Below are positions 2,237-42,810 of a DNA stretch of 42,810 nucleotides, piece by piece. The DNA comes from a virus. Position numbers and translations under genes: made by a program. Each line of letters starts with the position of its first letter. The stretch's first letter is position 1. The notes beneath the pieces were generated by a model. That model was not told the origin of the DNA. It searched no databases and was given only the letters and a program-made list of their open reading frames with translations. The DNA lies in the UHGV virus genome UHGV-0330108. One strand, 5' to 3'.

Positions 2237-3483
2237 GTATTCAGCTATCTGCACCACAGGCGTTGTTCCTGAACTGCGATAATAAATACAAGGCCTATGT
2301 CGGCGGCTTCGGCAGCGGCAAGACGTTTGTCGGCTGCCTTGACCTGCTTACGTTCATGCTCAAGCACCCCGGTACGCGCCTCGGCTACTTCGGCCCGACA
2401 TACCCGGCTATCCGCGACATCTTCTACCCGACATTCGAGGAAGCGGCTAACCTGCTCGGCCTTGATGTGCTGGTTAAATCCGGCGACAAAGAAGTCGTGG
2501 TTACTCGCGGTAAGACGGTGCTCGGAACTGTTATCTGCCGTTCTATGGACAACCCAGGCTCGATAGTCGGCTTCAAAATCGCCGCTGCTGTCGTGGATGA
2601 GCTGGACGTATTGAGCCGCGAGAAAGCCGAGTTGGCGTGGAACAAAATCGTAGCGCGTATGCGTCTTGTTATTCCTGGTGTAACCAACCACATCTCCGTT
2701 ACCACGACGCCGGAAGGGTTCAAGTTCGTTTACGCCAAGTTCAAAGAGAATCCGACACCGAGTTATTCAATGGTGCAGGCTTCCACTCACGAGAACGCGC
2801 GGTTCCTGCCGCCTGACTACATTAGTTCGCTGACCGAGACTTACCCCGCGCAACTGATTAACGCGTACCTGAACGGGGAGTTCGTCAACCTGACATCCGG
2901 CAGCGTGTACTACGCCTATGACCGCCGTAAGCATCGCAGCAAAGAGACAATTCAACCGGGTGACACGTTGTACATCGGGCAGGACTTCAACGTTACGAAG
3001 AACGCCAGCGCCGTGTATGTACAGCGTAAAGATGGCTGGCACGCGGTGGCGGAACTGAAGGGTCTGTTCGATACGCCAGACACCGTGCGTGTAATTACTG
3101 AGAAGTGGAAGTCCCAAGGACACCGCATCGTCGTTTACCCCGACGCCAGCGGCAAGAACCGCAAGACAAACTCGGCATCAATCTCAGATATCGCATTACT
3201 CCAGCAGGCCGGTTTTGATGTTCGCGCTAAATCGGCCAACCCTCCGGTTAAAGACCGTGTTTTAGCAGTGAATACCGCGCTGGAAAAAGGTAAGCTGTGG
3301 GTTAATGACCACTTATGCCCGGAGATAGCCAAGACGCTGGAGCAGCAGGCATACGACGATAACGGAGAGCCCGCTAAAGACGGCGTTATCGACCATATGG
3401 CGGATGCTCTCGGCTATCCTGTAGTTTACGAGATGCCGGTGGTTAAACCAGTAATCAACATCCCGGTGACTTTCGCACTTTAA
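2233..3483 (+). CDS. terminase large subunit
   Basis: Walker A-like YVGGFGSGKTFVGCL near the N-terminus; 416 aa; sits immediately upstream of the portal gene. Confidence 0.9.
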   Translation: MSIQLSAPQALFLNCDNKYKAYVGGFGSGKTFVGCLDLLTFMLKHPGTRLGYFGPTYPAIRDIFYPTFEEAANLLGLDVLVKSGDKEVVVTRGKTVLGTVICRSMDNPGSIVGFKIAAAVVDELDVLSREKAELAWNKIVARMRLVIPGVTNHISVTTTPEGFKFVYAKFKENPTPSYSMVQASTHENARFLPPDYISSLTETYPAQLINAYLNGEFVNLTSGSVYYAYDRRKHRSKETIQPGDTLYIGQDFNVTKNASAVYVQRKDGWHAVAELKGLFDTPDTVRVITEKWKSQGHRIVVYPDASGKNRKTNSASISDIALLQQAGFDVRAKSANPPVKDRVLAVNTALEKGKLWVNDHLCPEIAKTLEQQAYDDNGEPAKDGVIDHMADALGYPVVYEMPVVKPVINIPVTFAL

Positions 3484-6090: not shown

Positions 6091-6551
6091 TGATGGGCTT
6101 TTTCAAAGTAACTGACGTACCTTCGCGTCGCGTAGTCCAGTACGCCCGCGTGTCTGGCTCTGGCGAGAACGTGGTGTTTATCGAAGACGAAAGTGTACTC
6201 GGCTCACCGGTAGACGATATGCCGTTTGCGGATAAAACCGGTATTGCGTTGCCAGCGGCTGGTATGCTTTACGAGATTCCGTATCTGGCTGACGCTGGCG
6301 ATGTGTATTTCTCGGCGCAACCGCAGGACGCTGAACTGGCAGACGGCGGCGCAACTATCACCGTCGAAGTTAATGCAGGTAAAGCACCGTACGCGCTGAC
6401 CTGGTATAAAGACGGTAAGGAAGTGGTAAACGCCCCGGAAGAGGCTTTATCTCTGACGGTTAATTCAGTCGGCGAATACTTCGTCAAGGTTACCGATGCC
6501 GATGGTGTAGAGGCCGTAAGTAAAGCGGCGAAGGTTACGAAGCCAGAATGA
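6090..6551 (+). CDS. Ig-like domain protein (possible capsid decoration protein)
   Basis: C-terminal segment TVEVNAGKAPYALTWYKDGKEV...GEYFVKVTDADG is Ig-like; start ATGATG overlaps the previous stop. Confidence 0.5.
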   Translation: MMGFFKVTDVPSRRVVQYARVSGSGENVVFIEDESVLGSPVDDMPFADKTGIALPAAGMLYEIPYLADAGDVYFSAQPQDAELADGGATITVEVNAGKAPYALTWYKDGKEVVNAPEEALSLTVNSVGEYFVKVTDADGVEAVSKAAKVTKPE

Positions 6552-6554
6552 TAA

Positions 6555-6585
6555 AAGGCCCCTTACGGGGCCTTAGTTTTATTTG
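6555..6585. terminator. bidirectional rho-independent terminator
   Basis: AAGGCCCC-TTAC-GGGGCCTT flanked by an A-run upstream and AGTTTTATTT downstream, at a convergent gene junction. Confidence 0.55.
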
Positions 6586-6797
6586 AAGAATATCGCGAAT
6601 TTCTTGTAACCCGCTGGCTCGTTGCGCAGACCGTGTTCGTTAGCAAAACGTTGTATATTGTTAAAGTCATTTTCACCCATTCCGTCCGTATCGAACGTAA
6701 AGAAATTACGTTTGTTCCCGATAAGCACACGGCTTGTGATATCAATGCCGTAAAGTTCTTTGATGGCACGTACAACGTTTGCAGTAGCTTTGTTCAT
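6579..6797 (-). CDS. hypothetical protein (72 aa), isolated minus-strand gene
   Basis: ORF track frame 6579-6896; internal ATG at 6797 preceded by TAAGGAATTTGGAA; a TATAAT-containing 23-mer lies ~33 nt upstream. Confidence 0.5.
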   Translation of the reverse strand: MNKATANVVRAIKELYGIDITSRVLIGNKRNFFTFDTDGMGENDFNNIQRFANEHGLRNEPAGYKKFAIFFK

Positions 6798-6829
6798 TTC
6801 CAAATTCCTTATCTCTCGTTTCGATGTAA

Positions 6830-6852
6830 TGAATAGTACCCTATTATATTGG
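6830..6852 (-). promoter_or_regulatory. promoter/operator cassette TGAATAGTACCCTATTATATTGG (minus-strand TATAAT plus palindrome GAATAG-N4-CTATTA)
   Basis: Perfect TATAAT on the minus strand overlapping a 16-bp palindrome; the identical 23-mer recurs at 16043-16065. Confidence 0.45.
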
Positions 6853-6927
6853 TGTCTGCAAACTATTTGTTTACGTATTCCAGTTATTCCACTCAATTGT
6901 AAATGTTGGAATAAACTATTCGAATAG

Positions 6928-12747: not shown

Positions 12748-13916
12748 ATATGGCTACAACTCCTTTTAAGGGCGCGAATACCGCGCAATTCTATGTGGCG
12801 GAAGTGACCCCGGGCGTAACACCTGCTAACCCGGTCTGGTCGCCGTTGCGTAACACTGGCGGTGTTCCTGCCGTAACCCGCGATGCGCTGACTTCCAACG
12901 AACTGGACGGCAGCCGTGAAACCACATCCATCCGCACTGGTAACAAGCAGGTCAGCGGAGAGTACGCCATTGAGCTTAGCTCCCGTAGCCAGGATGATTT
13001 CCTTGCGGGTGCTATGACTTCTACGTGGCAGGATGGGGTAGAGATTACGGGTGCCGAAATTACGGTCGCCCCAGCAGGTAAAACATTCACCCGCGCTGCC
13101 GGTAGCTTCATTACTGACGGTGTAGAAGTTGGCGACCTGATCGCGTTCACCGACTTAACCGGCGACAACGCAAAACCGTTTATCGTGACCGCGGTCGAGG
13201 CGCTCGTAGTAACAGGCGCAGGTATTCAGCACACGCTGACAGCAGAGACTGTAACCACCGACGCTAAAACTGGCGATAAACTGGAAACTGGTAACGCATG
13301 TAAGACGTTCTCCATCCTGACATGGTTCAAAGGCCAGTGCGGGAACCCTGACGCGTACATGCTGACCAAAGGCGTGGAAATCTCCGGTTTTACTATCGAG
13401 CAGGCCGTAAACGCTATGGTAACCGGCAGCTTCCCGTTCATTGGTCTGAGCCAGGAGATTCTTACCGCTCCGCCGTCCGGCTCTGATTTCTCCCGGGTTA
13501 CGTTCACCGATGAGCCGTTCTCGTCTGTAGATGTGTCTGTGTTCGACGGCTCTGCGCCGTTGCGTTGCGACAGCCTGACCATCACCAACGACAACAGCGC
13601 ATCCGCGCAGTTCGAACTCGGCAACAGTAGCGTCGCGTTCGTGGAACGCGGTCGCGCAGCTAACACCTTCTCCATCTCCGGCAAGCTGTACGACATGGCG
13701 ATGATTCAGAAGTTTATCAACGAACAGCAGGTAGAGATTAACTCTATTCTGGCGGGGGTAAACGGGGCTATGTCTTTCAGCCTGAAACGAGCAGAACTTA
13801 CGGCGGTTACACCAGAGATTGGTGGCCCTGAGTCAATCACTCAGTCTATTGAAGGCCAGGCCACCGGCAACCAGTACCAGTCATCTATCGTAATTCAACG
13901 TATCACCTACGCATAA
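12744..13916 (+). CDS. putative major tail protein
   Basis: 390 aa ORF between connector genes and the chaperone/tape-measure pair; followed by a strong terminator. Confidence 0.65.
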   Translation: MNMATTPFKGANTAQFYVAEVTPGVTPANPVWSPLRNTGGVPAVTRDALTSNELDGSRETTSIRTGNKQVSGEYAIELSSRSQDDFLAGAMTSTWQDGVEITGAEITVAPAGKTFTRAAGSFITDGVEVGDLIAFTDLTGDNAKPFIVTAVEALVVTGAGIQHTLTAETVTTDAKTGDKLETGNACKTFSILTWFKGQCGNPDAYMLTKGVEISGFTIEQAVNAMVTGSFPFIGLSQEILTAPPSGSDFSRVTFTDEPFSSVDVSVFDGSAPLRCDSLTITNDNSASAQFELGNSSVAFVERGRAANTFSISGKLYDMAMIQKFINEQQVEINSILAGVNGAMSFSLKRAELTAVTPEIGGPESITQSIEGQATGNQYQSSIVIQRITYA

Positions 13917-13950
13917 AACTAAGGCCCCAAACGGGGCCTTTTTCTTACTC
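13917..13950. terminator. bidirectional rho-independent terminator cassette
   Basis: AAAACT-AAGGCCCC-AAAC-GGGGCCTT-TTTTCTTACTC; the minus-strand gene's stop codon lies in the T-tract. Near-identical copy at 25239-25277. Confidence 0.65.
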
Positions 13951-14175
13951 ATCAATGTTACTTCTGTACTCCCGTAACTTCTCCAGGCTTTCAATTGCTT
14001 CCGCTAAGTCTGTTCCGGTGTCCTTGTGCCCGCGAAGGCCCATACACAATAATTTCTTCAATGCGTGCTGTAACGCCGGGTCGCGGATGTCGAAAGCGCG
14101 GAGCACATCATAAACGTCTACAGTCATAGTGCTGCCGTGGATGTTTGTCATTGTGCGGTTGTATTTTGAAGTCAT
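13945..14175 (-). CDS. hypothetical protein (76 aa)
   Basis: ORF track; last gene of the minus-strand island. Confidence 0.5.
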   Translation of the reverse strand: MTSKYNRTMTNIHGSTMTVDVYDVLRAFDIRDPALQHALKKLLCMGLRGHKDTGTDLAEAIESLEKLREYRSNIDE

Positions 14176-16042: not shown

Positions 16043-16065
16043 TGAATAGTACCCTATTATATTGG
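16043..16065 (-). promoter_or_regulatory. promoter/operator cassette TGAATAGTACCCTATTATATTGG, identical to 6830-6852
   Basis: Exact 23-mer repeat with minus-strand TATAAT and the palindrome, directly upstream of the island's first gene. Confidence 0.45.
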
Positions 16066-16181
16066 GGCGCGCAAGTAGTGTGCTAGAATAGGTTTGCGCC
16101 TAGTGTCGCACACGAAAAGCGGGTGGTTCCCGTCTGGCGCATCAACCTTAACCCGTAACCTCTTAACCAAAGGATTAAAGA

Positions 16182-25238: not shown

Positions 25239-25277
25239 AAAAAAACTAAGGCCCCAAACGGGGCCTTTTCTTTACTC
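25239..25277. terminator. bidirectional rho-independent terminator cassette
   Basis: A9-CT-AAGGCCCC-AAAC-GGGGCCTT-TTCTTTACTC; core identical to 13917-13950; contains the stop codon of a minus-strand small gene. Confidence 0.65.
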
Positions 25278-25409
25278 TTCTGATAACTTCTCAAGTACAA
25301 ACGCCAGTTGCGCATTAGCGGCGTCTCTTTGCTGGCGTAGTCGTAGAACCTCCTCCTCGAGTTCCTTGATACGTTTTTGCAATGCTGGAATCGGGGCTAT
25401 GATGTTCAT
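25272..25409 (-). CDS. small coiled-coil protein (45 aa, MNIIAPIPALQKRIKELEEEVLRLRQQ...)
   Basis: Not in the ORF track; ATG overlaps the helicase stop (ATGA); GAGGTAAG upstream. Confidence 0.4.
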   Translation of the reverse strand: MNIIAPIPALQKRIKELEEEVLRLRQQRDAANAQLAFVLEKLSEE

Positions 25410-26839
25410 TTCTTACCTCGTCTCTTCATGTAATTGAGTAATTCTTCCTGGACCGATTTCTTCTCGTCAGTGCGTGCGGCAACAACCTCGTCCAGCGTGT
25501 CTTTAGCAACGATGCGGTAGAGGAACACCGGGCGCTCGTGTCCCGCCTGTTTCTGGCGCACAGGACCTATGCGCTCCACGACCTGCAAATAGTGCTCAAG
25601 GTTCCAGCCTTGCGAAATAAACGCCAGATGATGGCCGCCGTCCTGTAAATTCAAACCATGGCCGGCTGACGCAGGGTGCACACATAAGATTTCGATTTCT
25701 CCTCGGTTCCACGCTTCCATCTGCTTATTGCCTTTAGCACCTTTGGCGAACGCCTGTGCCTGCGGGAAACGTTTCAGGATGCGTTCCAGTTCGTGCTTGA
25801 ACTGATAGGCGACCAGTAGCGGTGCGCCCTGTAACTCCTCCACAATTGACTCCAGCGCATCCAGTTTCGTATCGTGCACTTTCTCCCAGTCTTTGGTTGC
25901 TTCTCCGTCAGGCCCCGATACATATACGGCACCAGATGCAATCTGCAGACACTTTGACGTCTTCGCCGCAGCGTTAGCCGCTTCAACTTCCCCGCTCTCG
26001 AGTTCCGCAAATAACTTCTCTTCCATATCTACGTACGCCTGACGCGCTTTCTTCGGCAGGTCGATTTCAACCGGTACAATAATCGGCGCTTCGCATCCGA
26101 ACCACTCAGCGGCGTCAATCGTGAGACTAATGTCCTTCATCTTCTGGTGGATTTCATTATCAGCACCAGGGCGGGCATGATACTCACGCGCCATAGCAGA
26201 TTTGCCTTTCTGCACCGAGTTAAACCAGCGGTCGGTGAATGCCGTGTACGACGACCCCAGGCGCTCGCCCGCGTCGATAAACCAGTTCTGGCCCCACAAG
26301 TCCTTGAGGCCGTTTGGTGACGGTGTGCCTGTCAGGTTAATGAAACGTTTAACCTTTCCGAACGCCACTTTACTAAGCGCCTTTGCCCTCTTGCTACCGC
26401 CCGAACGGCTACGGAATGATTTCAGCTTCGTGCTTTCATCGGCGACTATAACCGTAAAAGGCCAGTCGTCTTTGCCGTAGTAGTCAATAAGCCACTCGAT
26501 AACTTCGTAGTTCGTGCATACCACGTTAGCGTCCGACTCCAGCGCCGCGATGCGGCGCTTCTCGGAATCGGTCGCATCTACGACGCGCAGACACGGGAAA
26601 CCCCACTTAGTTTGTTCTGATGGCCATGTACCAGACGCAACTCGCAGCGGGGCGAGGATTAACACGCGGTCATCATCATCATTAAGTTGGCCGTTGCGGA
26701 ACAGTCGGTTAAGCACCCACATAGTTGCGGAACTTTTGCCCGCGCCCATCGAAGCCCAAATATTACAGCGCGGATGTTGCAGCATGAACGAAGTCATGAG
26801 CTTTTGGTACTCTCGACGGATAAATTTAGACATAATCAA
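25406..26839 (-). CDS. SNF2/DEAD-box-like ATP-dependent helicase
   Basis: Walker A SMGAGKSS, DExx box VADEST, NLTGTPSPN, and late motif HPASAGHGLNLQ. Confidence 0.8.
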   Translation of the reverse strand: MIMSKFIRREYQKLMTSFMLQHPRCNIWASMGAGKSSATMWVLNRLFRNGQLNDDDDRVLILAPLRVASGTWPSEQTKWGFPCLRVVDATDSEKRRIAALESDANVVCTNYEVIEWLIDYYGKDDWPFTVIVADESTKLKSFRSRSGGSKRAKALSKVAFGKVKRFINLTGTPSPNGLKDLWGQNWFIDAGERLGSSYTAFTDRWFNSVQKGKSAMAREYHARPGADNEIHQKMKDISLTIDAAEWFGCEAPIIVPVEIDLPKKARQAYVDMEEKLFAELESGEVEAANAAAKTSKCLQIASGAVYVSGPDGEATKDWEKVHDTKLDALESIVEELQGAPLLVAYQFKHELERILKRFPQAQAFAKGAKGNKQMEAWNRGEIEILCVHPASAGHGLNLQDGGHHLAFISQGWNLEHYLQVVERIGPVRQKQAGHERPVFLYRIVAKDTLDEVVAARTDEKKSVQEELLNYMKRRGKK

Positions 26840-27030
26840 CCCTTAATGTAGAGTACCAGCTCTTTACGCCCGAACGCCGTAACGTTACCGGTTACGTCTT
26901 CAATAACCAGTTTACCGTTCGACTCGACGTACACCGTATCAACGGCAACAGGCTGTCGAGTCTTAACGTTGAAAATCATGTCGCCAGGTACGATGTCACG
27001 CGCTGGTTTGCGGTCATATTCGTGTTTCAT
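26836..27030 (-). CDS. hypothetical protein (64 aa)
   Basis: ORF track; initiation region TAAGGAATTGAGAAATG is identical to that of 27045-27338. Confidence 0.5.
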   Translation of the reverse strand: MKHEYDRKPARDIVPGDMIFNVKTRQPVAVDTVYVESNGKLVIEDVTGNVTAFGRKELVLYIKG

Positions 27031-27044
27031 TTCTCAATTCCTTA

Positions 27045-27338
27045 TCAGTACATTAATTCGTTTATTTTCTTATCCAAAGATTCTTTTGAGTAAAAGAAAC
27101 CCATGTGTCTCCCCTTAAATACGAGCCTGTACACATTCTCATCATCTTCAGTAGTAGAAAGGAAAACCCTACAACTAGTTCGGAACTCTCTTACTTTGTC
27201 ACCAAACGCCAATTGCTCCCATTTTACTAAAGGAAATTCTTTTAACATATTGGCGTACAAGTCATTCGCAGTAGCCACTAAGCCCGCATCTAATAGTATG
27301 GCTATTCTCTGCGCGTAATCTAAAAGGACCTTATTCAT
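27045..27338 (-). CDS. hypothetical protein (97 aa), AT-rich cassette
   Basis: ORF track; flanked by 18-bp direct repeats CATTTCTCAATTCCTTAT; visibly more AT-rich than neighbours. Confidence 0.5.
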   Translation of the reverse strand: MNKVLLDYAQRIAILLDAGLVATANDLYANMLKEFPLVKWEQLAFGDKVREFRTSCRVFLSTTEDDENVYRLVFKGRHMGFFYSKESLDKKINELMY

Positions 27339-27341
27339 TTC

Positions 27342-27653
27342 TCAATTCCTTATATTGTTGGTGCAGGGATAACTATAATAGTTCGCTATTAGGTCGTCAA
27401 CCTCTTCTTTTGTTCCTACTACAAAAACATTTGCGTCACGTTTACGAAGCCGTTTGTGTTCCCGCAACTGATGGGCCTCCGGTTCCGTGTTTTCGTCTTT
27501 CTTCACCTCGACGAACCATATAACCCCTCCAGGAAGGGCTACCAGCAGGTCAGGCGCTCCGTTTCTACCCTCATAAGACAGCTTACGAACGAGGCCACCA
27601 ATGGCCTCGAATTGCTCTTTTGCGTATTTCTGTATTTTTCCTTCCGGGGTCAT
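27342..27653 (-). CDS. VRR-NUC domain nuclease
   Basis: ORF track frame 27342-27668; ATG at 27653; motif GAPDLLVALPGGVIWFVEVKKDE fits the VRR-NUC/PD-(D/E)XK signature. Confidence 0.7.
   Translation of the reverse strand: MTPEGKIQKYAKEQFEAIGGLVRKLSYEGRNGAPDLLVALPGGVIWFVEVKKDENTEPEAHQLREHKRLRKRDANVFVVGTKEEVDDLIANYYSYPCTNNIRN
27372..27400 (-). promoter_or_regulatory. sigma70-like promoter (minus: TTGACG-N17-TATAGT) with palindrome TAATAGTTCGCTATTA in the spacer
   Basis: Read on the reverse complement; lies inside the 3' end of the VRR-NUC gene, upstream of 27045-27338. Confidence 0.55.
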
Positions 27654-27802
27654 GAGCGCAGAACCCAAGTAAGGAAAGACCCTCCGAGAACGGCAACGCC
27701 CGCAAACTTAAAGAACAGGCCATAGCAGAACATCGCGGCTATTCCCGCACCGAGTAACAGTGCGATCATGGTTACTATCGTCCAAAATACAAACATTGTC
27801 AT
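27650..27802 (-). CDS. small membrane protein (50 aa)
   Basis: Not in the ORF track; ATG at 27802 with GGGAGGG 9 nt upstream; stop overlaps the VRR-NUC ATG (ATGA); hydrophobic. Confidence 0.35.
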   Translation of the reverse strand: MTMFVFWTIVTMIALLLGAGIAAMFCYGLFFKFAGVAVLGGSFLTWVLRS

Positions 27803-27884
27803 AATACACATCCCTCCCGTTTGGTATGCTCAATACCACATCGCGGACAGATTCGGCAGTCTTCTCCATAAAACCAGTAAATTT

Positions 27885-28016
27885 TCATTCCAGCACCCAT
27901 AGATAAATTGCGATGAACATGCCCAATATAGCAACCATCATGCCGTATTGGCCCTCGTGACAGTAGACACCGGCAGCGAATCCCGCCAGTACCGCGATAA
28001 TCAGTTTACTTGGCAT
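27885..28016 (-). CDS. small membrane protein (43 aa)
   Basis: Not in the ORF track; ATG at 28016 just after the DNA polymerase stop, GGAG upstream; hydrophobic. Confidence 0.35.
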   Translation of the reverse strand: MPSKLIIAVLAGFAAGVYCHEGQYGMMVAILGMFIAIYLWVLE

Positions 28017-30207
28017 AACGCTTCATCTCCGCACCTTCCGCGACCAAAGGGAACCCATCTGCCCACTCGGGCAACGCACACATTAATTTTTCCAGTTCAG
28101 CCACCGTGTATTCAGGTGTGTCTGGAGTTTCACACACCAGTTCATCGTGTACCGAAAGTACGATAGGATACCCACCGCCCTCAACATTAATCATCGCATA
28201 TGCGAGTAAATCACGGCACAGCGCCTGAACAATGTTTTCGCAGGCTTTGCCGCCGTGGGTGTACAGGGTAGTCCATTGGCGGGTTAACTGGTTTTCACCC
28301 TGATACTTGATTCGCACATTCGTGTTTACCCGGCCGTCTTCATCTGTCTCCTTTGTCACACTAACGCCGATTCCCGGATAAGAGAGGATGCGGCCCGACG
28401 GCAACTCCATGCATAACCACCAACCAGGAACCTTCCTTCCGGATGAATCAAATTCTACAGTACGCCATATGCGGATAGCCCTTTCGCCATTCCTGCGCAA
28501 GTGCGCTCCCGCCCAAAATTCACGACCTGGGTTACGGACAGCGGCTAAAATTCCGTCTTTAAGGTCACGCCAGAACGCTACTGTTTCCGGGTGTGACTCG
28601 CGCCACATACGCTTGATTGCGTCGCAGGTACGCCACACTTTTTTGTCCAGAATATACGATGGTCTGTCGTCCTTTTCACCTGGATGCGGTGGGCGCTTGG
28701 CTTCCTGGATGCGCGCCCATTCATATCCTCTCGCGGTGGCTGACCAGATGTGGTCGGGGAATGTACCGTCCATTGTTTTTGCCATCTCGATAAGGTCAAG
28801 ACCTAAGTTTTTGGCGAACGTAACGAACGCTCCGACGCCGCCCTCATAGCCGAGGCCAAGCTCGCAAGCCTTGCCTATCTGTCTGATTTCCTTGAAGTTT
28901 TTCTTAATATCGTCGGGGTCCATGCCGAACATCTTACCTGCGGTTACGCAGTAAATATCCAGTCCAGCGCGGAAAGTATCGAGCGCGGTTTCTTCACCAG
29001 CCAGCCACGCAAGCCCCCGGCCTTCAACGTTCGAGTAATCGGCGACGACAAACTTATGCCCTGCTTCCGGAATGATGCAACTACGCACCGTAGATGCTGT
29101 TAGCTTGGCTACATCGAAACGGCGATGAGCACGGCCTTTAAGTAACGCAGAAATGCCTTTATCCAGTTCATCATCGTGATAGTACCCACGCGCCAGGTTC
29201 TGCGGCTGGAAGCCTTTACCGGCCCATCGCAGAGTACGTTTTGCCCCGCCGTACTGCAAGCAACCACGACGGCGGTCGTCCGACGAGCGGCCCAACAGCA
29301 GCGGGTTATATTTCGTTGATGCGGTGGACGCCGCCCCGAGGCGCATTTCGATAATCGTACGCGCGTCGTCAGGTAAATCATCATCTGCCAGCAGGTCGTT
29401 AAGCGTAGACTTCTGCGCATTGTGGATGCGGTGCGCGGGCGCAAGTTCACGCAGAATAGGAAGGAAGTCTTTACCGGTAAGAGAGCCGCCGTATTTGCGT
29501 TGGGCTTCTTCCTGTAGCTGCGCTTTGTGCTTCTCCACGGCTTCAATTGCGGCTTCCGCCAGTGCAACGTCAACCTTAAACCCGCGGTCATTGATTACCT
29601 GGTCCAGTTCCAGCACACGGTCTTCGAACTCAGAGTTACCCCAACGCGGCAGTTTATGGAAGACTTCACGCATCGCAGTGATGTCGCTCACGGCGTACTT
29701 GATGAACAGCGCCCACTCGTCTGGGTGCGTTTCTGCTGTGTAACGGCGGATTTTGTAGTTCTTCGGCGTAGGTTTAGAAAAACGCTGAATCAGCGCCTTG
29801 CCGCGTTTATCTTTCGCGTTGTCTGCAGATACGCCCAGCACTTCGCACAACGCATCGAGAGAACCCGGAAGCGCGTGACGAAACGCCCAAATCATCGTAT
29901 CAATGGTGTTGCTTACCGGAATATCAAAGCCCCAGCAATGCTTCATGATGAGCCTGTCGAAAAGTCCACCGTTGTGCCATACCATCTTAATACGGCTGTT
30001 CGGCTTCACCAGACGGCGTAACGCGCGATGCAGGTCCCCTGGCATGTCGCTGCCGTCGGTGCAATCCCATACCTGTACAGGCTCGTCGTCAAAAGCATAG
30101 GTGCAGATAAGCACTTCTGTAGTCTGGTGTTCGGCGTAAGCGTAGGAACCGACTTTCTTTAAATCGGCTTCGGAGAATGTTTCAAAGTCTAAGAACAGGT
30201 AACTCAT
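28006..30207 (-). CDS. DNA polymerase, family A, with 3'-5' exonuclease domain
   Basis: Exo I motif LFLDFETFS; motif A VADYSNVEGRGLAWLAGE; motif B RQIGKACELGLGYEGG; motif C LSVHDELVCE. Confidence 0.9.
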   Translation of the reverse strand: MSYLFLDFETFSEADLKKVGSYAYAEHQTTEVLICTYAFDDEPVQVWDCTDGSDMPGDLHRALRRLVKPNSRIKMVWHNGGLFDRLIMKHCWGFDIPVSNTIDTMIWAFRHALPGSLDALCEVLGVSADNAKDKRGKALIQRFSKPTPKNYKIRRYTAETHPDEWALFIKYAVSDITAMREVFHKLPRWGNSEFEDRVLELDQVINDRGFKVDVALAEAAIEAVEKHKAQLQEEAQRKYGGSLTGKDFLPILRELAPAHRIHNAQKSTLNDLLADDDLPDDARTIIEMRLGAASTASTKYNPLLLGRSSDDRRRGCLQYGGAKRTLRWAGKGFQPQNLARGYYHDDELDKGISALLKGRAHRRFDVAKLTASTVRSCIIPEAGHKFVVADYSNVEGRGLAWLAGEETALDTFRAGLDIYCVTAGKMFGMDPDDIKKNFKEIRQIGKACELGLGYEGGVGAFVTFAKNLGLDLIEMAKTMDGTFPDHIWSATARGYEWARIQEAKRPPHPGEKDDRPSYILDKKVWRTCDAIKRMWRESHPETVAFWRDLKDGILAAVRNPGREFWAGAHLRRNGERAIRIWRTVEFDSSGRKVPGWWLCMELPSGRILSYPGIGVSVTKETDEDGRVNTNVRIKYQGENQLTRQWTTLYTHGGKACENIVQALCRDLLAYAMINVEGGGYPIVLSVHDELVCETPDTPEYTVAELEKLMCALPEWADGFPLVAEGAEMKRYAK

Positions 30208-30896: not shown

Positions 30897-30949
30897 CGTG
30901 ATTTCTCGCTTTTCAGTTTACTCCGGGAACTGCCCGGCCAGTTATTAGA

Positions 30950-30978
30950 ACTATAATAGTTAACTATTCAGGTGTCAA
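30950..30978 (-). promoter_or_regulatory. sigma70-like promoter (minus: TTGACA-N17-TATAGT) with perfect palindrome GAATAGTTAACTATTA in the spacer
   Basis: Consensus -35, near-consensus -10, 17-bp spacer; ~45 nt upstream of the ATG at 30896. Confidence 0.6.
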
Positions 30979-31211
30979 CCCTTCCAGCCAGTTATTTTCT
31001 CGACTAGCCAGATATACTTGTTTGGCCAGTTCAAATTGCGTACCCACTCAACTTCTTTGGTGTACACCAACTCCTCTAGTTCTATTTTCCTGCACTTAAA
31101 GGCGGTATACACGAAAAACGGAAGAAGCATTATAACTAGCGGCAGTATCAGAGCGTGATAAGTTAAAAACGCCACAAAACCGCCAATTACTCTGAACATT
31201 TTACGAATCAT
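30975..31211 (-). CDS. small membrane protein (78 aa from MIRKMF...)
   Basis: ORF track frame 30975-31241; ATG at 31211 overlaps the exonuclease stop, with GAGGAGGA upstream; hydrophobic core. Confidence 0.45.
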   Translation of the reverse strand: MIRKMFRVIGGFVAFLTYHALILPLVIMLLPFFVYTAFKCRKIELEELVYTKEVEWVRNLNWPNKYIWLVEKITGWKG

Positions 31212-33453: not shown

Positions 33454-33485
33454 TTTGTTTCTCTCCTCTCGTTTGGTATGGGCTA

Positions 33486-33515
33486 ACTATAATAGCGAAC
33501 TATTCATGTTGTCAA
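33486..33515 (-). promoter_or_regulatory. sigma70-like promoter (minus: TTGACA-N18-TATAGT) with palindrome GAATAGTTCGCTATTA
   Basis: Same architecture as 27372-27400 and 30950-30978; divergent from the XRE regulator gene. Confidence 0.55.
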
Positions 33516-37985: not shown

Positions 37986-37988
37986 TTT

Positions 37989-38192
37989 ATGGGTGAGTGG
38001 GTTAAGTGTAGTGAGCGGATGCCGGAGCCGGGTCAACCAGTTTTGGTCGTCAGTAGTATGGGCGGGGTGGTCAAGAAACATGTGTACGATTGGGATGGGA
38101 TGACTTGGTGCGATTTCTACGGGGAACACGCGGAATGCGGGCGGGAAGTGTTTTCTCACTGGATGCCATTACCGGAGCCGCCAGAAGCGTGA
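37989..38192 (+). CDS. DUF551-like protein, paralog 1
   Basis: Shares WVKCSERMPE...SHWMPLPEPPEA framework with 38676-38873; pattern resembles DUF551. Confidence 0.55.
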   Translation: MGEWVKCSERMPEPGQPVLVVSSMGGVVKKHVYDWDGMTWCDFYGEHAECGREVFSHWMPLPEPPEA

Positions 38193-38226
38193 TGTTCAAT
38201 AGTTTAAGATTTTACTGAGTGACTTA

Positions 38227-38256
38227 CGCTGCTACACAGCAGCGTATCATTTTTCT
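38227..38256 (+). terminator. putative rho-independent terminator
   Basis: CGCTGC-TACACA-GCAGCG followed by a T-rich tract. Confidence 0.4.
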
Positions 38257-38316
38257 CATTTTTGTTCTATTTCACCAAACGCAACAATCGAAGCGACTAT
38301 TGCAGGAGATGCAACA

Positions 38317-38490
38317 ATGATTACTAAAGAACAGGCTGAGCGACTAATCACGTTAATCGACACGATGATTGATGTAAAAATCGATTTAGCAACGGCAACA
38401 GAGGAATCCGCTACCTGGTCGCTTGAAGAAAGAGAAGCAGAAGCGGAACGGGAGTTACTGGCATTCATCGACTCCATAACACACCAATAA
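38317..38490 (+). CDS. hypothetical small acidic protein (57 aa)
   Basis: Not in the ORF track; ATG at 38317 with AGGAG 8 nt upstream; the track's minus ORF 38256-38477 is its antisense shadow. Confidence 0.4.
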   Translation: MITKEQAERLITLIDTMIDVKIDLATATEESATWSLEEREAEAERELLAFIDSITHQ

Positions 38491-38497
38491 AATTTAC

Positions 38498-38526
38498 TTG
38501 CACACTGATATAGAATAGGCTACTAT
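38498..38526 (+). promoter_or_regulatory. putative promoter (TTGCAC-N17-TACTAT) with palindrome GAATAGGCTACTATTC over the -10
   Basis: Same architecture as 36984-37012; ~30 nt upstream of GGGAGGAGAG and the ATG at 38558. Confidence 0.5.
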
Positions 38527-38557
38527 TCATTTACACAAATGGGAGGAGAGACAGAAG

Positions 38558-38692
38558 ATGACTAACTACGGTAGTCAGACTTTAGGCGAACTTGACGATG
38601 CATACGAAACGTCTAGGTGCACGTCTGTATGCGACGGTGATACACGCGAAATAGTAATGGGGGTAGAGGGTGAATATGAGCAAGTGGATTAA
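38558..38692 (+). CDS. hypothetical small protein (44 aa)
   Basis: Not in the ORF track; strong RBS GGGAGGAGAG; 3' end overlaps the next gene. Confidence 0.35.
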   Translation: MTNYGSQTLGELDDAYETSRCTSVCDGDTREIVMGVEGEYEQVD

Positions 38693-38873
38693 GTGTAGTG
38701 AGAAGATGCCGGAAGGTTTTACGGATGTACTTGTTACCGACGGCTCCTATGTGGAAATTATGACGCTACTTGGTGACGGTATCTGGCTTGTGTTGCTGGA
38801 GGAGTGGTCTACCTGCGTTTCTGTTGACAACATAACTCACTGGATGCCATTACCAGAGCCACCGGAAGAGTGA
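38676..38873 (+). CDS. DUF551-like protein, paralog 2
   Basis: ORF track frame 38670-38873; ATG at 38676 with GAGGGTG upstream; same framework as paralog 1. Confidence 0.55.
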   Translation: MSKWIKCSEKMPEGFTDVLVTDGSYVEIMTLLGDGIWLVLLEEWSTCVSVDNITHWMPLPEPPEE

Positions 38874-38960
38874 TGTTATGGTGCGGGTAATTATTGCGGG
38901 TGAGAAGATATACCGCACGCAAACGGTAAGTTCGAGTTAATAGATGTAGGAGAGCAGATT

Positions 38961-39458: not shown

Positions 39459-39658
39459 CCAGCATCCTTTTTATCTGGGTATTGTCAGCGGGCCAGATGC
39501 AACTGGCGGCAACAGAAACGTTTTACTCGATGGAGGCGTGCCAGTCAGCGGCACGCGCCGCAGAGAACGCGCACTTCCTGTTTCAGGGCGACAAGCCAAG
39601 CGATTCAGAGGTACGCGCTATCTGCTCACCTAAGCGACTCGGTAAACAGGAGAAGTGA
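39455..39658 (+). CDS. small protein with signal-peptide-like N-terminus (67 aa)
   Basis: ORF track frame 39431-39658; ATG at 39455 overlaps the upstream stop; hydrophobic N-terminus MTSILFIWVLSAGQMQLAA. Confidence 0.5.
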   Translation: MTSILFIWVLSAGQMQLAATETFYSMEACQSAARAAENAHFLFQGDKPSDSEVRAICSPKRLGKQEK

Positions 39659-39663
39659 TTATG
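39620..39663 (+). repeat. 44-bp gene-junction repeat, copy 1 (ATCTGCTCACCTAAGCGACTCGGTAAACAGGAGAAGTGATTATG)
   Basis: 41/44 identical to 40039-40082; spans C-terminal codons, stop, RBS and start. Confidence 0.7.
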
Positions 39664-39963
39664 AGCACCGAAGCGATGAAGAAAAAGGTTTTGAACGCTT
39701 TGCAAGAAGCTGTGAACTATGGTGCTATCAAAACGTTCACAGAAAGGCACGTCGGTGAAGTGACAATTCACGGATTTAATAATAACAAAAACGGAATTGC
39801 AGCAATCATGCTTTTAAAGAATAGTGGTGATACATTTATCATTTACGTTGGCGGATATGAGCTTATCGTTGATGATGTGTTCATCACCTGCGCCGATGGA
39901 CTTAATCCCATGTTAGCGTTTGAGCGTCGCGGAATACGTGTTGCAACATTTGGAGGGAAGTGA
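39661..39963 (+). CDS. hypothetical protein (100 aa), AT-rich
   Basis: ORF track frame 39655-39963; ATG at 39661 preceded by AGGAG inside the junction repeat. Confidence 0.5.
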   Translation: MSTEAMKKKVLNALQEAVNYGAIKTFTERHVGEVTIHGFNNNKNGIAAIMLLKNSGDTFIIYVGGYELIVDDVFITCADGLNPMLAFERRGIRVATFGGK

Positions 39964-40038
39964 ATATTATGACATCCAACCTTAAGGCCCGTTTGTTACC
40001 CATAAAGCCTCACGTGCTGTATAAGATGGACCAGCTCT

Positions 40039-40082
40039 ATCTGCTCACCCAAGCGACTTGGTAAACAGGAGAAATGATTATG
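40039..40082 (+). repeat. 44-bp gene-junction repeat, copy 2
   Basis: Three mismatches to copy 1, all at third codon positions of the frame encoding ICSPKRLGKQEK. Confidence 0.7.
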
Positions 40083-42344: not shown

Positions 42345-42494
42345 ATGAAAATCACAGATATCGAAGCATTCGAAGACGCACAACTGATGGCACGCATCGC
42401 CGTCAATAACATGAGCAGCAATATCCCGGCTGACGCGTTCTGGTCCGCTGCGATGCAGGCGCTGAAAGCAGCTTACGCAGGAGAGAAGAAATGA
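42345..42494 (+). CDS. hypothetical small protein (49 aa)
   Basis: Not in the ORF track; weak RBS; stop overlaps the next ATG (ATGA); ends AGEKK like its neighbour. Confidence 0.35.
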   Translation: MKITDIEAFEDAQLMARIAVNNMSSNIPADAFWSAAMQALKAAYAGEKK

Positions 42495-42700
42495 GCGACG
42501 TTATCGTTGGCGGCATCTATAGGAGTAATTACTCGTGGGGCGATGCTGGTGAAGTTAGTTTCATTGTAACTGCGGTTGGGTTGGACCATATACTTATCGC
42601 CGACTACCCATTGATAAAATTCAATGAATCCTATTTGGAATATTGTGTTGGTAGAAAGGAGTTCGAGGCTAAATTTAAGTTTGCAGGAGAGAAGAAATGA
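42491..42700 (+). CDS. hypothetical protein (69 aa)
   Basis: ORF track; preceded by the junction 23-mer GCAGGAGAGAAGAAATGAGCGA. Confidence 0.5.
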   Translation: MSDVIVGGIYRSNYSWGDAGEVSFIVTAVGLDHILIADYPLIKFNESYLEYCVGRKEFEAKFKFAGEKK

Positions 42701-42810
42701 GCGAACAAGGTCCAGTAAGCCAACCGTTACGAGTAGGCCGTAAAGTCAGTCACACCCCGTTCCCGTCACGCGAGGAACTGATGAAACGTAACAGTTTCCC
42801 GGGGCCGGAC
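42697..42810 (+). CDS. 5' part of a CDS truncated by the window end (hypothetical protein)
   Basis: ATG at 42697 inside the second copy of the junction 23-mer; frame is open to the last base of the window. Confidence 0.4.
   Translation, partial: MSEQGPVSQPLRVGRKVSHTPFPSREELMKRNSFPGPD

What the first reader, a model, noticed from the sequence alone, without database searches (positions are those of the whole stretch)
27028..27353. AT-rich gene flanked by 18-bp direct repeats of a translation-initiation region
CATTTCTCAATTCCTTAT occurs at 27028-27045 and 27336-27353, so genes 26836-27030 and 27045-27338 have identical RBS and start context. The enclosed gene is visibly more AT-rich than its neighbours. 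This is the footprint expected for cassette insertion by recombination between short conserved junction sequences.
Basis: seen in the sequence. Interest (0 to 1): 0.5.

Follow-up and report, generated by a model that had tools for sequence, protein, structure and literature searches.

The report
Phage gene cassette flanked by duplicated ribosome-binding sites
A small AT-rich gene of unknown function sits in a variable slot of a Salmonella/E. coli phage genome, bracketed by two identical copies of the neighbouring gene's translation start signal; this is the footprint of gene gain and loss by recombination at short conserved gene-boundary sequences, a known process seen here in a clean new example.

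Summary
The repeat is exact and 20 nt long (27026-27045 and 27334-27353). Read on the coding (-) strand it is ATAAGGAATTGAGAAATGAA, a Shine-Dalgarno site, spacer and start codon. It brackets a 97-aa gene of 37.8% GC in a 50.7% GC genome.

The window is a Guernseyvirinae (Kagunavirus/Jerseyvirus-like) phage. Relatives such as fPoEco01 lack exactly these 308 bp and keep one copy of the motif. The gene is in only 3 of about 450 related GenBank records and 1 of 50 IMG/VR loci. In other relatives the same slot holds an 84-aa gene, a 67-aa gene, or both in tandem separated by the motif.

Among carriers, the cassette's synonymous divergence is lower than that of its flanks. The closest relatives of carriers have empty sites. 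One mosaic breakpoint maps to within 28 nt at the motif. Distant homologues of the gene sit in unrelated phages without the motif.

Two more repeat-bounded cassettes of this kind are in the same window. The protein's function is unknown.

This is a new example of the known boundary-sequence (PeSL-like) kind of gene shuffling, of moderate interest.

The parts
27334..27353 (-). Upstream copy of the 20-nt junction repeat (TIR1). It serves as SD, spacer and ATG of the 97-aa gene and contains the VRR-NUC stop codon TGA (27342-27344).
27045..27338 (-). 97-aa AT-rich ORFan, the cargo of the 308-bp cassette. It is a real protein-coding gene under purifying selection and belongs to a small family found in several unrelated enterobacterial phages. 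Function unknown.
27026..27045 (-). Downstream copy of the 20-nt junction repeat (TIR2). This is the resident TIR of the conserved 64-aa gene and is kept exactly in 47 of 50 relatives.
26836..27030 (-). Conserved 64-aa gene (g64, phrog_4879, unknown function). Its TIR is the duplicated sequence.
27342..27668 (-). VRR-NUC / Holliday-junction-resolvase-like nuclease gene. The ORF is listed from a TTG; an ATG at 27653 is the more likely start. Its 3' end is the variable left border of the slot.
27372..27400 (-). Sigma-70-like promoter (TTGACG-17-TATAGT) inside the 3' end of VRR-NUC. It is one of three copies of a repeated promoter-like motif, the others at 30949-30980 and 33480-33504. Its position makes the slot promoter-proximal, and it is not part of the duplication.
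25406..26839 (-). SNF2-family helicase gene, the downstream conserved flank. In some relatives a methylase or HNH gene lies between it and g64.
6793..6812 (-). Third, 90%-identical copy of the TIR motif (ATAAGGAATTTGGAAATGAA). It drives another AT-rich variable gene at 6579-6797.
42477..42704 (+). Second cassette of the same kind. An exact 22-nt junction repeat GCAGGAGAGAAGAAATGAGCGA (42477-42498 and 42683-42704) brackets the 69-aa gene 42491-42700 (41% GC). fFiEco03 lacks exactly these 206 bp and has one copy of the repeat.
39615..40082 (+). Third cassette of the same kind. A 49-nt, 92%-identical junction repeat ending in GGAGAA(G/A)TGATTATG (39615-39663 and 40034-40082) brackets the 102-aa gene 39655-39963. 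fTaEco01 has a single junction.

Best explanation
The window is a lytic Guernseyvirinae siphovirus. Between the VRR-NUC nuclease gene and a conserved 64-aa gene (g64), just downstream of a phage promoter, lies a slot for accessory genes. Here it holds a 308-bp cassette: a 294-bp ORF (97 aa, AT-rich, foreign family) plus 14 nt. The cassette is bracketed by two identical copies of the g64 translation initiation region (TIR). The ORF was captured without its own expression signals and is translated from a copy of the resident TIR, while g64 keeps the other copy. The cassette entered this phage group horizontally. It now moves between related genomes, and can be lost precisely, by recombination. 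Some events use the short conserved junction (20-28 nt around the TIR) and others use larger flanking homology. A crossover between the two TIR copies deletes the cassette and leaves exactly the single-copy empty site seen in most relatives. A crossover between the TIR of one genome and a TIR of another inserts, swaps or stacks cassettes. What is shown: the anatomy, the precise empty site, the alternative and tandem occupants, a breakpoint at the junction, the lower dS of the cassette, and the foreign homologues. What is inferred: the enzymology (phage or host short-homology recombination, possibly through a circular TIR+ORF intermediate), the first capture event, and the protein's role, which I guess to be a host-interaction or anti-defence accessory function.
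For: Repeat and anatomy.
Composition.
Phage identity.
Precise empty site with one motif copy: (fPoEco01). Of 50 IMG/VR relatives, 41 are empty, 8 carry the 84-aa cassette and 1 carries the 97-aa cassette, and 47 of 50 keep the exact 18-mer.
Rarity: 3 of about 450 records carry the 97-aa gene, 14 the 84-aa gene and 7 the 67-aa gene.
Alternative occupants: the 84-aa gene is also bracketed by the motif (CATTTCTCAATTCCTTAT and CATTTTATAATTCCTTAT). EF2-1 carries 84aa-TIR-67aa in tandem, which is the product expected from an unequal crossover in the 20-nt TIR.
Breakpoint: L006 and L007 are 100% identical from 9 nt upstream of TIR1 through the cassette, g64 and about 145 bp of the helicase gene, but only 87% identical in VRR-NUC right up to that point.
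Age: median dS among carriers is 0.26 for the cassette, against 0.46 for VRR-NUC, 0.43 for g64 and 0.84 for the helicase.
Nearest relatives of carriers have empty sites. For SETP13, the polymerase 3' end is 99.8% identical to L161 and the helicase 96.7% identical to L137, and both are empty. For the window, the nearest are fPoEco01 and L123. SETP13 carries the cassette on a foreign block that begins near the start of VRR-NUC.
Real gene: dN/dS is 0.02-0.14.
Foreign family: 17 clusters in all, found in a PAS7-like podovirus, as a classical moron with its own promoter and terminator in a Hafnia TS33-like phage, and in two other phage contexts. None of these has the motif.
Two further repeat-bounded cassettes in the same window have matching single-copy sites in relatives.
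The phage encodes recombination-type proteins: a PD-(D/E)XK/DUF2800 nuclease, an Enc34-type ssDNA-binding protein and VRR-NUC.
Against: An empty site with one repeat copy is equally the product of deletion from an ancestral carrier. dS rests on only about 65 synonymous sites in an AT-biased gene, so its lower value could partly reflect codon constraint. Only one breakpoint (L006 versus the L007 group) was mapped to the junction, and in SETP13 the transfer used longer flanking homology. In phage D1 the upstream copy is the ATA variant otherwise seen with the 84-aa cassette, and a simple TIR crossover does not explain this. The first capture event and any circular intermediate are not observed. 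The protein has no functional assignment: Pfam, PHROG, NCBIfam and PADLOC searches and three fold searches were all uninformative.
Confidence: 0.78

Rival explanations
1. The 97-aa gene is ancestral to Guernseyvirinae. Most lineages have lost it independently by slippage or short-homology deletion between the two 20-nt direct repeats, and there has been no horizontal gain.
For: Direct repeats of 20 nt favour precise deletion, and every empty site has exactly the predicted single copy. The gene is present in both Jerseyvirus (SETP13) and Kagunavirus-like genomes.
Against: The gene is present in only about 1-2% of relatives. It is AT-rich. Its dS is lower than that of either flank in nearly all 21 carrier pairs. 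The nearest backbone relatives of carriers are empty. SETP13 carries it on a visibly foreign block. Homologues occur in unrelated phages. This rival also leaves the origin of the TIR duplication unexplained. Loss by this route probably does occur, but alongside gain rather than instead of it.
Confidence: 0.12
2. The cassette is an autonomous or non-autonomous mobile element (transposon or MITE-like, or driven by a homing endonuclease), and the repeat is a target-site duplication made by staggered cleavage.
For: The insertion is precise and flanked by a duplication of target sequence. HNH homing-endonuclease genes occur nearby in some relatives: fFiEco03 and L008.
Against: There are no terminal inverted repeats. 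The 97-aa protein matches no transposase, nuclease or any other family. The duplicated length differs at each of the three sites (20, 22 and 49 nt) and always coincides with a TIR or stop-start junction. Family members elsewhere show no such duplication.
Confidence: 0.04
3. The identity of the two 20-mers is convergence or coincidence. Both genes were independently selected for the same optimal ribosome-binding site, and this is unrelated to how the gene arrived.
For: The motif is a good SD (TAAGGA) with an 8-nt spacer, and a third gene (6579-6797) has a 90% similar TIR.
Against: The identity covers all 20 nt, including a spacer that need not be constrained. Only 3 of about 140 ORF starts in the window resemble the motif, and the rest match at 13 of 20 positions or fewer. 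The indel boundaries in relatives coincide exactly with the repeat. Two other cassettes in the window show the same pattern with unrelated junction sequences.
Confidence: 0.02
4. The structure arose by tandem duplication of g64 together with its TIR, after which one copy diverged into the 97-aa gene.
For: A tandem duplication would naturally duplicate the TIR.
Against: The two proteins show no detectable similarity. The 97-aa family exists in phages that have no g64 neighbour. The two genes also differ in composition.
Confidence: 0.01

Closest known systems
[quoted passage not shown] 2010, PMC2839356; Comeau et al. 2014, PMC4122927)
   Same: An ORFan is flanked by two copies of a conserved regulatory motif in one phage and replaced by a single copy of the motif in a close relative. 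The authors propose reversible excision and insertion by recombination between the motifs. The events cluster in plastic regions and the cargo has unknown function.
   Different: The repeated unit here is a 20-nt translation initiation region (22 and 49 nt at the other two sites), not a roughly 100-bp promoter-plus-terminator composite. The promoter upstream of the slot is not duplicated. The host phage is a 43-kb siphovirus with about 51% GC. No mini-circles have been shown.
Short conserved boundary (linker) sequences in lambdoid phages (Susskind and Botstein's modular theory; Clark et al. 2001) and the Island3 gp68 case in Cluster I mycobacteriophages (Hatfull et al. 2011, PMC3029335)
   Same: Homologous recombination at short conserved sequences at gene boundaries produces mosaic joints. 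In Island3 an extra small gene is bracketed by a repeated sequence that is present once in the relative Brujita, and the authors could not decide between insertion and deletion.
   Different: Here the repeat is the TIR itself. Several alternative cassettes and a tandem array occupy one slot. The direction (gain) can be argued from dS, composition and outgroup homologues.
Morons (Juhala et al. 2000; Hendrix et al. 2000). This comparison rests on my own knowledge.
   Same: An extra gene lies between two genes that are adjacent in relatives. It has deviating base composition and an accessory function. A family member in a Hafnia TS33-like phage is a textbook moron with its own promoter and terminator.
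   Different: The copy in this window has neither its own promoter nor its own terminator. It uses the resident promoter and a duplicated resident TIR.
Integron gene cassettes
   Same: Promoterless ORF-sized cassettes are stacked at a promoter-proximal site and bounded by a repeated recombination sequence.
   Different: The region studied has no integrase, no attC-like imperfect palindromes and no attI. The repeat is a plain TIR, and exchange is presumably by general or short-homology recombination.

Membership tests
Boundary-sequence-mediated modular exchange in phages | A short sequence at a gene boundary is conserved across otherwise diverged relatives | tested here: met
   47 of 50 IMG/VR relatives keep the exact 18-mer in front of g64, while the adjacent VRR-NUC 3' end varies.
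Boundary-sequence-mediated modular exchange in phages | Mosaic breakpoints coincide with the conserved sequence | tested here: met
   Between L006 and L007 the last mismatch lies 9 nt upstream of the repeat and 100% identity follows. The EF2-1 tandem array is joined at the TIR. SETP13's block breakpoint lies elsewhere, so not every event uses the motif.
Boundary-sequence-mediated modular exchange in phages | Alternative modules at one site are bounded by the same sequence | tested here: met
   The slot is empty or holds the 97-aa, 84-aa, 67-aa or 84+67-aa genes.
PeSL cassettes (T4-type phages) | The repeated unit is a composite of a strong sigma-70 early promoter and a stem-loop terminator of about 100 bp | tested here: not met
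   The repeat is 20 nt of SD, spacer and ATG. The promoter-like site at 27372-27400 lies outside the duplication, and no terminator is found on the - strand.
PeSL cassettes (T4-type phages) | An ORFan is flanked by two motif copies in one genome and by a single copy in a close relative | tested here: met
PeSL cassettes (T4-type phages) | Excised mini-circles carry the ORFan plus one motif | not testable with these tools
   This needs outward-facing PCR or deep sequencing of lysates.
Moron | An extra gene lies between genes that are adjacent in relatives and has deviating composition | tested here: met
Moron | The gene has its own promoter and terminator | tested here: not met
   There is no private promoter or terminator in 27026-27353. 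The L115 homologue does have both.
Transposable element with target-site duplication | Terminal inverted repeats and/or an encoded transposase | tested here: not met
   There are no terminal inverted repeats and no transposase-like domain.
Homing-endonuclease gene | An encoded LAGLIDADG, HNH, GIY-YIG or similar nuclease | tested here: not met
   No family match was found. The fold is a small helical and beta domain with no nuclease hit.
Integron cassette | An attC site and an associated tyrosine integrase | not tested
   No palindromic attC-like element lies at the cassette ends. The whole window was not scanned for an integrase.

The most novel reading that the evidence does not exclude
Guernseyvirinae may run a general, integrase-free cassette system. 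In it, translation-initiation or stop-start junctions double as recombination sites. ORF-sized units (TIR+ORF) would excise as small circles or be exchanged by the phage's own short-homology recombination machinery (DUF2800 nuclease, Enc34-type ssDNA-binding protein, VRR-NUC). They would re-insert at any resident copy of the junction, arriving ready to be expressed. Three such cassettes in one 43-kb genome would be the visible trace of this process, and duplicated junctions would mark recently acquired accessory genes such as candidate anti-defence genes.
Probability: 0.25. Interest if true: 0.6.

Novelty: new member of a known kind. Interest (0 to 1): 0.35.

Why it matters
The case documents how small accessory genes are gained, swapped, stacked and lost in a phage group that is widely isolated for therapy against E. 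coli and Salmonella.

It gives a simple sequence signature for finding recently acquired phage genes: duplicated start-signal junctions with a single-copy site in relatives.

It also points to natural, promoter-proximal landing pads where payload genes could be inserted without disturbing neighbouring genes.

The 97-aa family is a small, mobile, strongly conserved phage gene with no known function, which makes it a reasonable candidate for a host-interaction factor.

Tried and rejected

Rfam on 26000-28500 found nothing.

Paralogy with g64 was rejected.

I tested whether D1's ATA-variant upstream TIR came from an 84-aa-cassette genome. D1's VRR-NUC allele is not especially close to those genomes (86-87%, against 92% to empty ones). 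The ATA variant in IMG/VR Guernseyvirinae occurs only with the 84-aa cassette, and the many other matches are chance hits in AT-rich contigs. This remains unexplained.

I looked for microhomology that could explain the first capture. The native upstream sequence of the L004 homologue matches the TIR at 15 of 20 positions, or 9 of 14 outside ATGAAT. That is the highest score among the 22 L004 ORF starts listed, but it is not compelling because all TIRs share SD-like bias.

A literature search on Guernseyvirinae recombination found no description of this junction.

A regex mislabelled L006, L007, L009 and L010 as empty; they are carriers and I read that table accordingly.

Full report
**What is there**

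The window is a roughly 43-kb Guernseyvirinae siphovirus. Region 26300-28100 matches about 450 Jerseyvirus and Kagunavirus records at 80-90% identity. All genes discussed here lie on the - strand, in this order:
- a family-A DNA polymerase (28006-30207);
- small ORFs;
- a VRR-NUC / Holliday-junction-resolvase-like nuclease (27342-27668);
- a 97-aa ORF (27045-27338);
- a conserved 64-aa gene, g64 (26836-27030);
- an SNF2 helicase (25406-26839).

The identity extends to 20 nt, TTCATTTCTCAATTCCTTAT, at 27026-27045 and 27334-27353, with a spacing of 308. On the coding strand it reads ATAAGGAATTGAGAA-ATG-AA. That is a Shine-Dalgarno site (TAAGGA), an 8-nt spacer, the start codon and two more bases.

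The duplicated unit is therefore a translation initiation region (TIR). The insert is 308 bp: the 294-bp ORF including its stop codon, plus 14 nt of TIR. AAGGAATT occurs only three times in 42.8 kb, each time as a TIR. Apart from those three, no ORF start in the window matches the 20-mer at more than 13 of 20 positions.

The enclosed gene has 37.8% GC, against 50.7% for the window. That is the lowest 0.35% of 294-bp windows. Its GC3 is 41.8%, against 54-60% for g64, the helicase and the polymerase (48% for VRR-NUC).

A sigma-70-like promoter (TTGACG-17-TATAGT, 27400-27372) lies in the 3' end of VRR-NUC just upstream of the first TIR. It is one of three copies of a repeated promoter-like motif. 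The slot is therefore the first position after a promoter.

**Comparison with relatives**

Escherichia phage fPoEco01 has, at the same place...gtgttt-CATTTCTCAATTCCTTAT-attgttgg.... That is the left flank of the window's copy 1, a single motif, and the right flank of copy 2, so exactly 308 bp are absent.

Of 50 IMG/VR loci that encode g64:
- 47 keep the exact 18-mer in front of g64;
- 41 have VRR-NUC directly upstream (empty site);
- 8 carry an 84-aa gene with a terminator;
- 1, which is SETP13 itself, carries the 97-aa gene.

In the GenBank phage collection the 97-aa gene is found only in SETP13 (two records) and Klebsiella phage D1. It also occurs in about nine metagenomic contigs.

The same slot holds other occupants in other phages:
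- a 67-aa gene in XY1, 7 records;
- an 84-aa gene in phiSD1, 14 records, bracketed by CATTTCTCAATTCCTTAT and CATTTTATAATTCCTTAT;
- both genes in tandem in EF2-1, joined exactly at the TIR.

The EF2-1 arrangement is what an unequal crossover within the roughly 20-nt TIR between a phiSD1-type and an XY1-type genome would produce.

**Direction and mode of change**

An empty site with one repeat copy is compatible with either insertion or deletion. Five observations favour horizontal gain.

1. The cassette is rare and compositionally foreign.
2. Among seven carriers, synonymous divergence of the cassette (median dS 0.26, range 0-0.33) is below that of VRR-NUC (0.46), g64 (0.43) and the helicase (0.84). 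dN/dS of 0.02-0.14 shows that the gene is real and constrained.
3. The closest backbone relatives of carriers have empty sites. SETP13's polymerase 3' end is 99.8% identical to L161 and its helicase 96.7% identical to L137, and both are empty. SETP13's cassette, by contrast, is 96% identical to copies in Kagunavirus-like contigs whose flanks are only 78-92% identical to SETP13's. SETP13's near-identity to L161 stops near the start of VRR-NUC, so there the cassette arrived on a larger foreign block.
4. L006 and the L007 group are 100% identical from 9 nt upstream of the TIR through the cassette, g64 and about 145 bp of helicase. They are only 87% identical in VRR-NUC right up to that point. To place one cassette next to two VRR-NUC alleles, a crossover must have occurred within the 28-nt conserved junction.
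5. The protein family is small: 17 clusters at 90% identity and 4 representatives at 50%. It occurs in unrelated contexts:
   - a PAS7-like podovirus;
   - a Hafnia TS33-like siphovirus, where it is a classical moron with its own promoter and terminator on the opposite strand;
   - two other phage types.

   None of these has the TIR motif, so the duplication derives from the target and not from the donor.

Precise loss by recombination or slippage between the repeats is also expected and probably happens.

**Generality within the window**

Two further cassettes show the same footprint with unrelated junction sequences.

- An exact 22-nt repeat, GCAGGAGAGAAGAAATGAGCGA, covers the last five codons of the upstream gene, an ATGA stop-start overlap and the first codons of the next gene. 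It brackets the 69-aa gene 42491-42700 (41% GC). fFiEco03 has one copy and lacks exactly 206 bp.
- A 49-nt, 92%-identical repeat ending in a TIR brackets the 102-aa gene 39655-39963. fTaEco01 has a single junction.

Junction duplication is therefore a recurrent mode of accessory-gene turnover in this phage.

**Mechanism: inferred steps**

The phage encodes a PD-(D/E)XK/DUF2800 nuclease, an Enc34-type ssDNA-binding protein and VRR-NUC. These are plausible agents of short-homology recombination, but this was not tested.

A circular TIR+ORF intermediate that integrates by a single crossover at the resident TIR would generate the TIR-ORF-TIR structure directly, as proposed for PeSL mini-circles. 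Unequal crossover between genomes, or template switching, would generate it as well.

The first capture from a foreign phage is unresolved. The native upstream region of the L004 homologue resembles the TIR at 15 of 20 positions, which is only suggestive.

D1 carries the ATA variant of the upstream TIR, which is otherwise linked to the 84-aa cassette. This remains unexplained.

**Function of the cargo**

The function is unknown. No Pfam, PHROG, NCBIfam or PADLOC family matches. A confident AlphaFold model (pLDDT 90) shows three helices, a three-stranded sheet and a C-terminal helix. It has no informative structural neighbour.

The gene is mobile, occurs in moron form elsewhere, and is under strong purifying selection. 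These features suggest a host-interaction accessory role, but that is a guess.

**Relation to known systems**

The closest analogues are PeSL-mediated modular shuffling in T4-type phages (PMC2839356), the boundary-sequence model for lambdoid phages, and the Island3 gp68 case in mycobacteriophages (PMC3029335).

The present case works like these but is not a PeSL. The repeat is a bare TIR, and the nearby promoter is not duplicated. It is not a transposon, because it has no inverted repeats and no transposase. It is not a tandem gene duplication either.

**Verdict**

This is a new, well-documented member of a known kind, of moderate interest.

Noticed in passing
window 42477-42704: An exact 22-nt junction repeat (GCAGGAGAGAAGAAATGAGCGA) brackets the 69-aa gene 42491-42700 (41% GC). 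Both the inserted gene and the upstream gene end in AGEKK*. fFiEco03 (L168 326-347) has a single copy and lacks exactly 206 bp.
   Followed up: yes
window 39615-40082: A 49-nt, 92%-identical repeat ending in GGAGAA(G/A)TGATTATG brackets the 102-aa gene 39655-39963 plus a roughly 70-nt spacer. fTaEco01 (L169) has one junction. Most relatives lose similarity exactly at the end of copy 1.
   Followed up: partly
window 6552-6861: A 72-aa AT-rich gene on the opposite strand (6579-6797) lies between structural and lysis genes. Its TIR, ATAAGGAATTTGGAAATGAA, is 90% identical to the repeat. A promoter-like repeat at 6830-6861 also occurs at 16043-16074. The gene shows 70-78% nucleotide similarity to 'internal head protein' genes of T4-like phages. 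It is absent from, or located elsewhere in, most Guernseyvirinae.
   Followed up: partly
window 27371-27402, 30949-30980, 33480-33504: A promoter-like motif is repeated three times on the - strand (TTGAC.-17-TATAGT/TATTAT). Each copy precedes a gene of the replication module. The first copy lies inside the VRR-NUC coding sequence.
   Followed up: partly
L003 (Klebsiella phage D1), about 3201-3218; L014 1319-1336: In D1 the upstream TIR copy is the ATA variant (AAGGAATTATAAAATG), which otherwise accompanies the 84-aa cassette. In the frame of VRR-NUC used by that allele, the variant creates the stop codon (..YKEL*). Its origin is unexplained.
   Followed up: partly
L003 2024-2707; L016 828-1325; L008 3497-4153 and 5567-6058: A second variable slot lies between g64 and the helicase gene, and there is another after the helicase. 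In different relatives these hold a cytosine methyltransferase (227 aa) or HNH homing-endonuclease genes. The slot between g64 and the helicase is empty in the window.
   Followed up: no
window 37988-38877: Two pairs of 39-42-nt repeats at 85-90% identity, spaced 681-687 bp apart, suggest tandemly duplicated paralogous genes.
   Followed up: no
window 13915-13953 and 25242-25280 (also 6549-6587): Near-identical GC-rich stem-loop terminators (AAGGCCCCAAACGGGGCCTT followed by a T-run) are repeated at module ends. A similar hairpin ends the 84-aa cassette in relatives.
   Followed up: no
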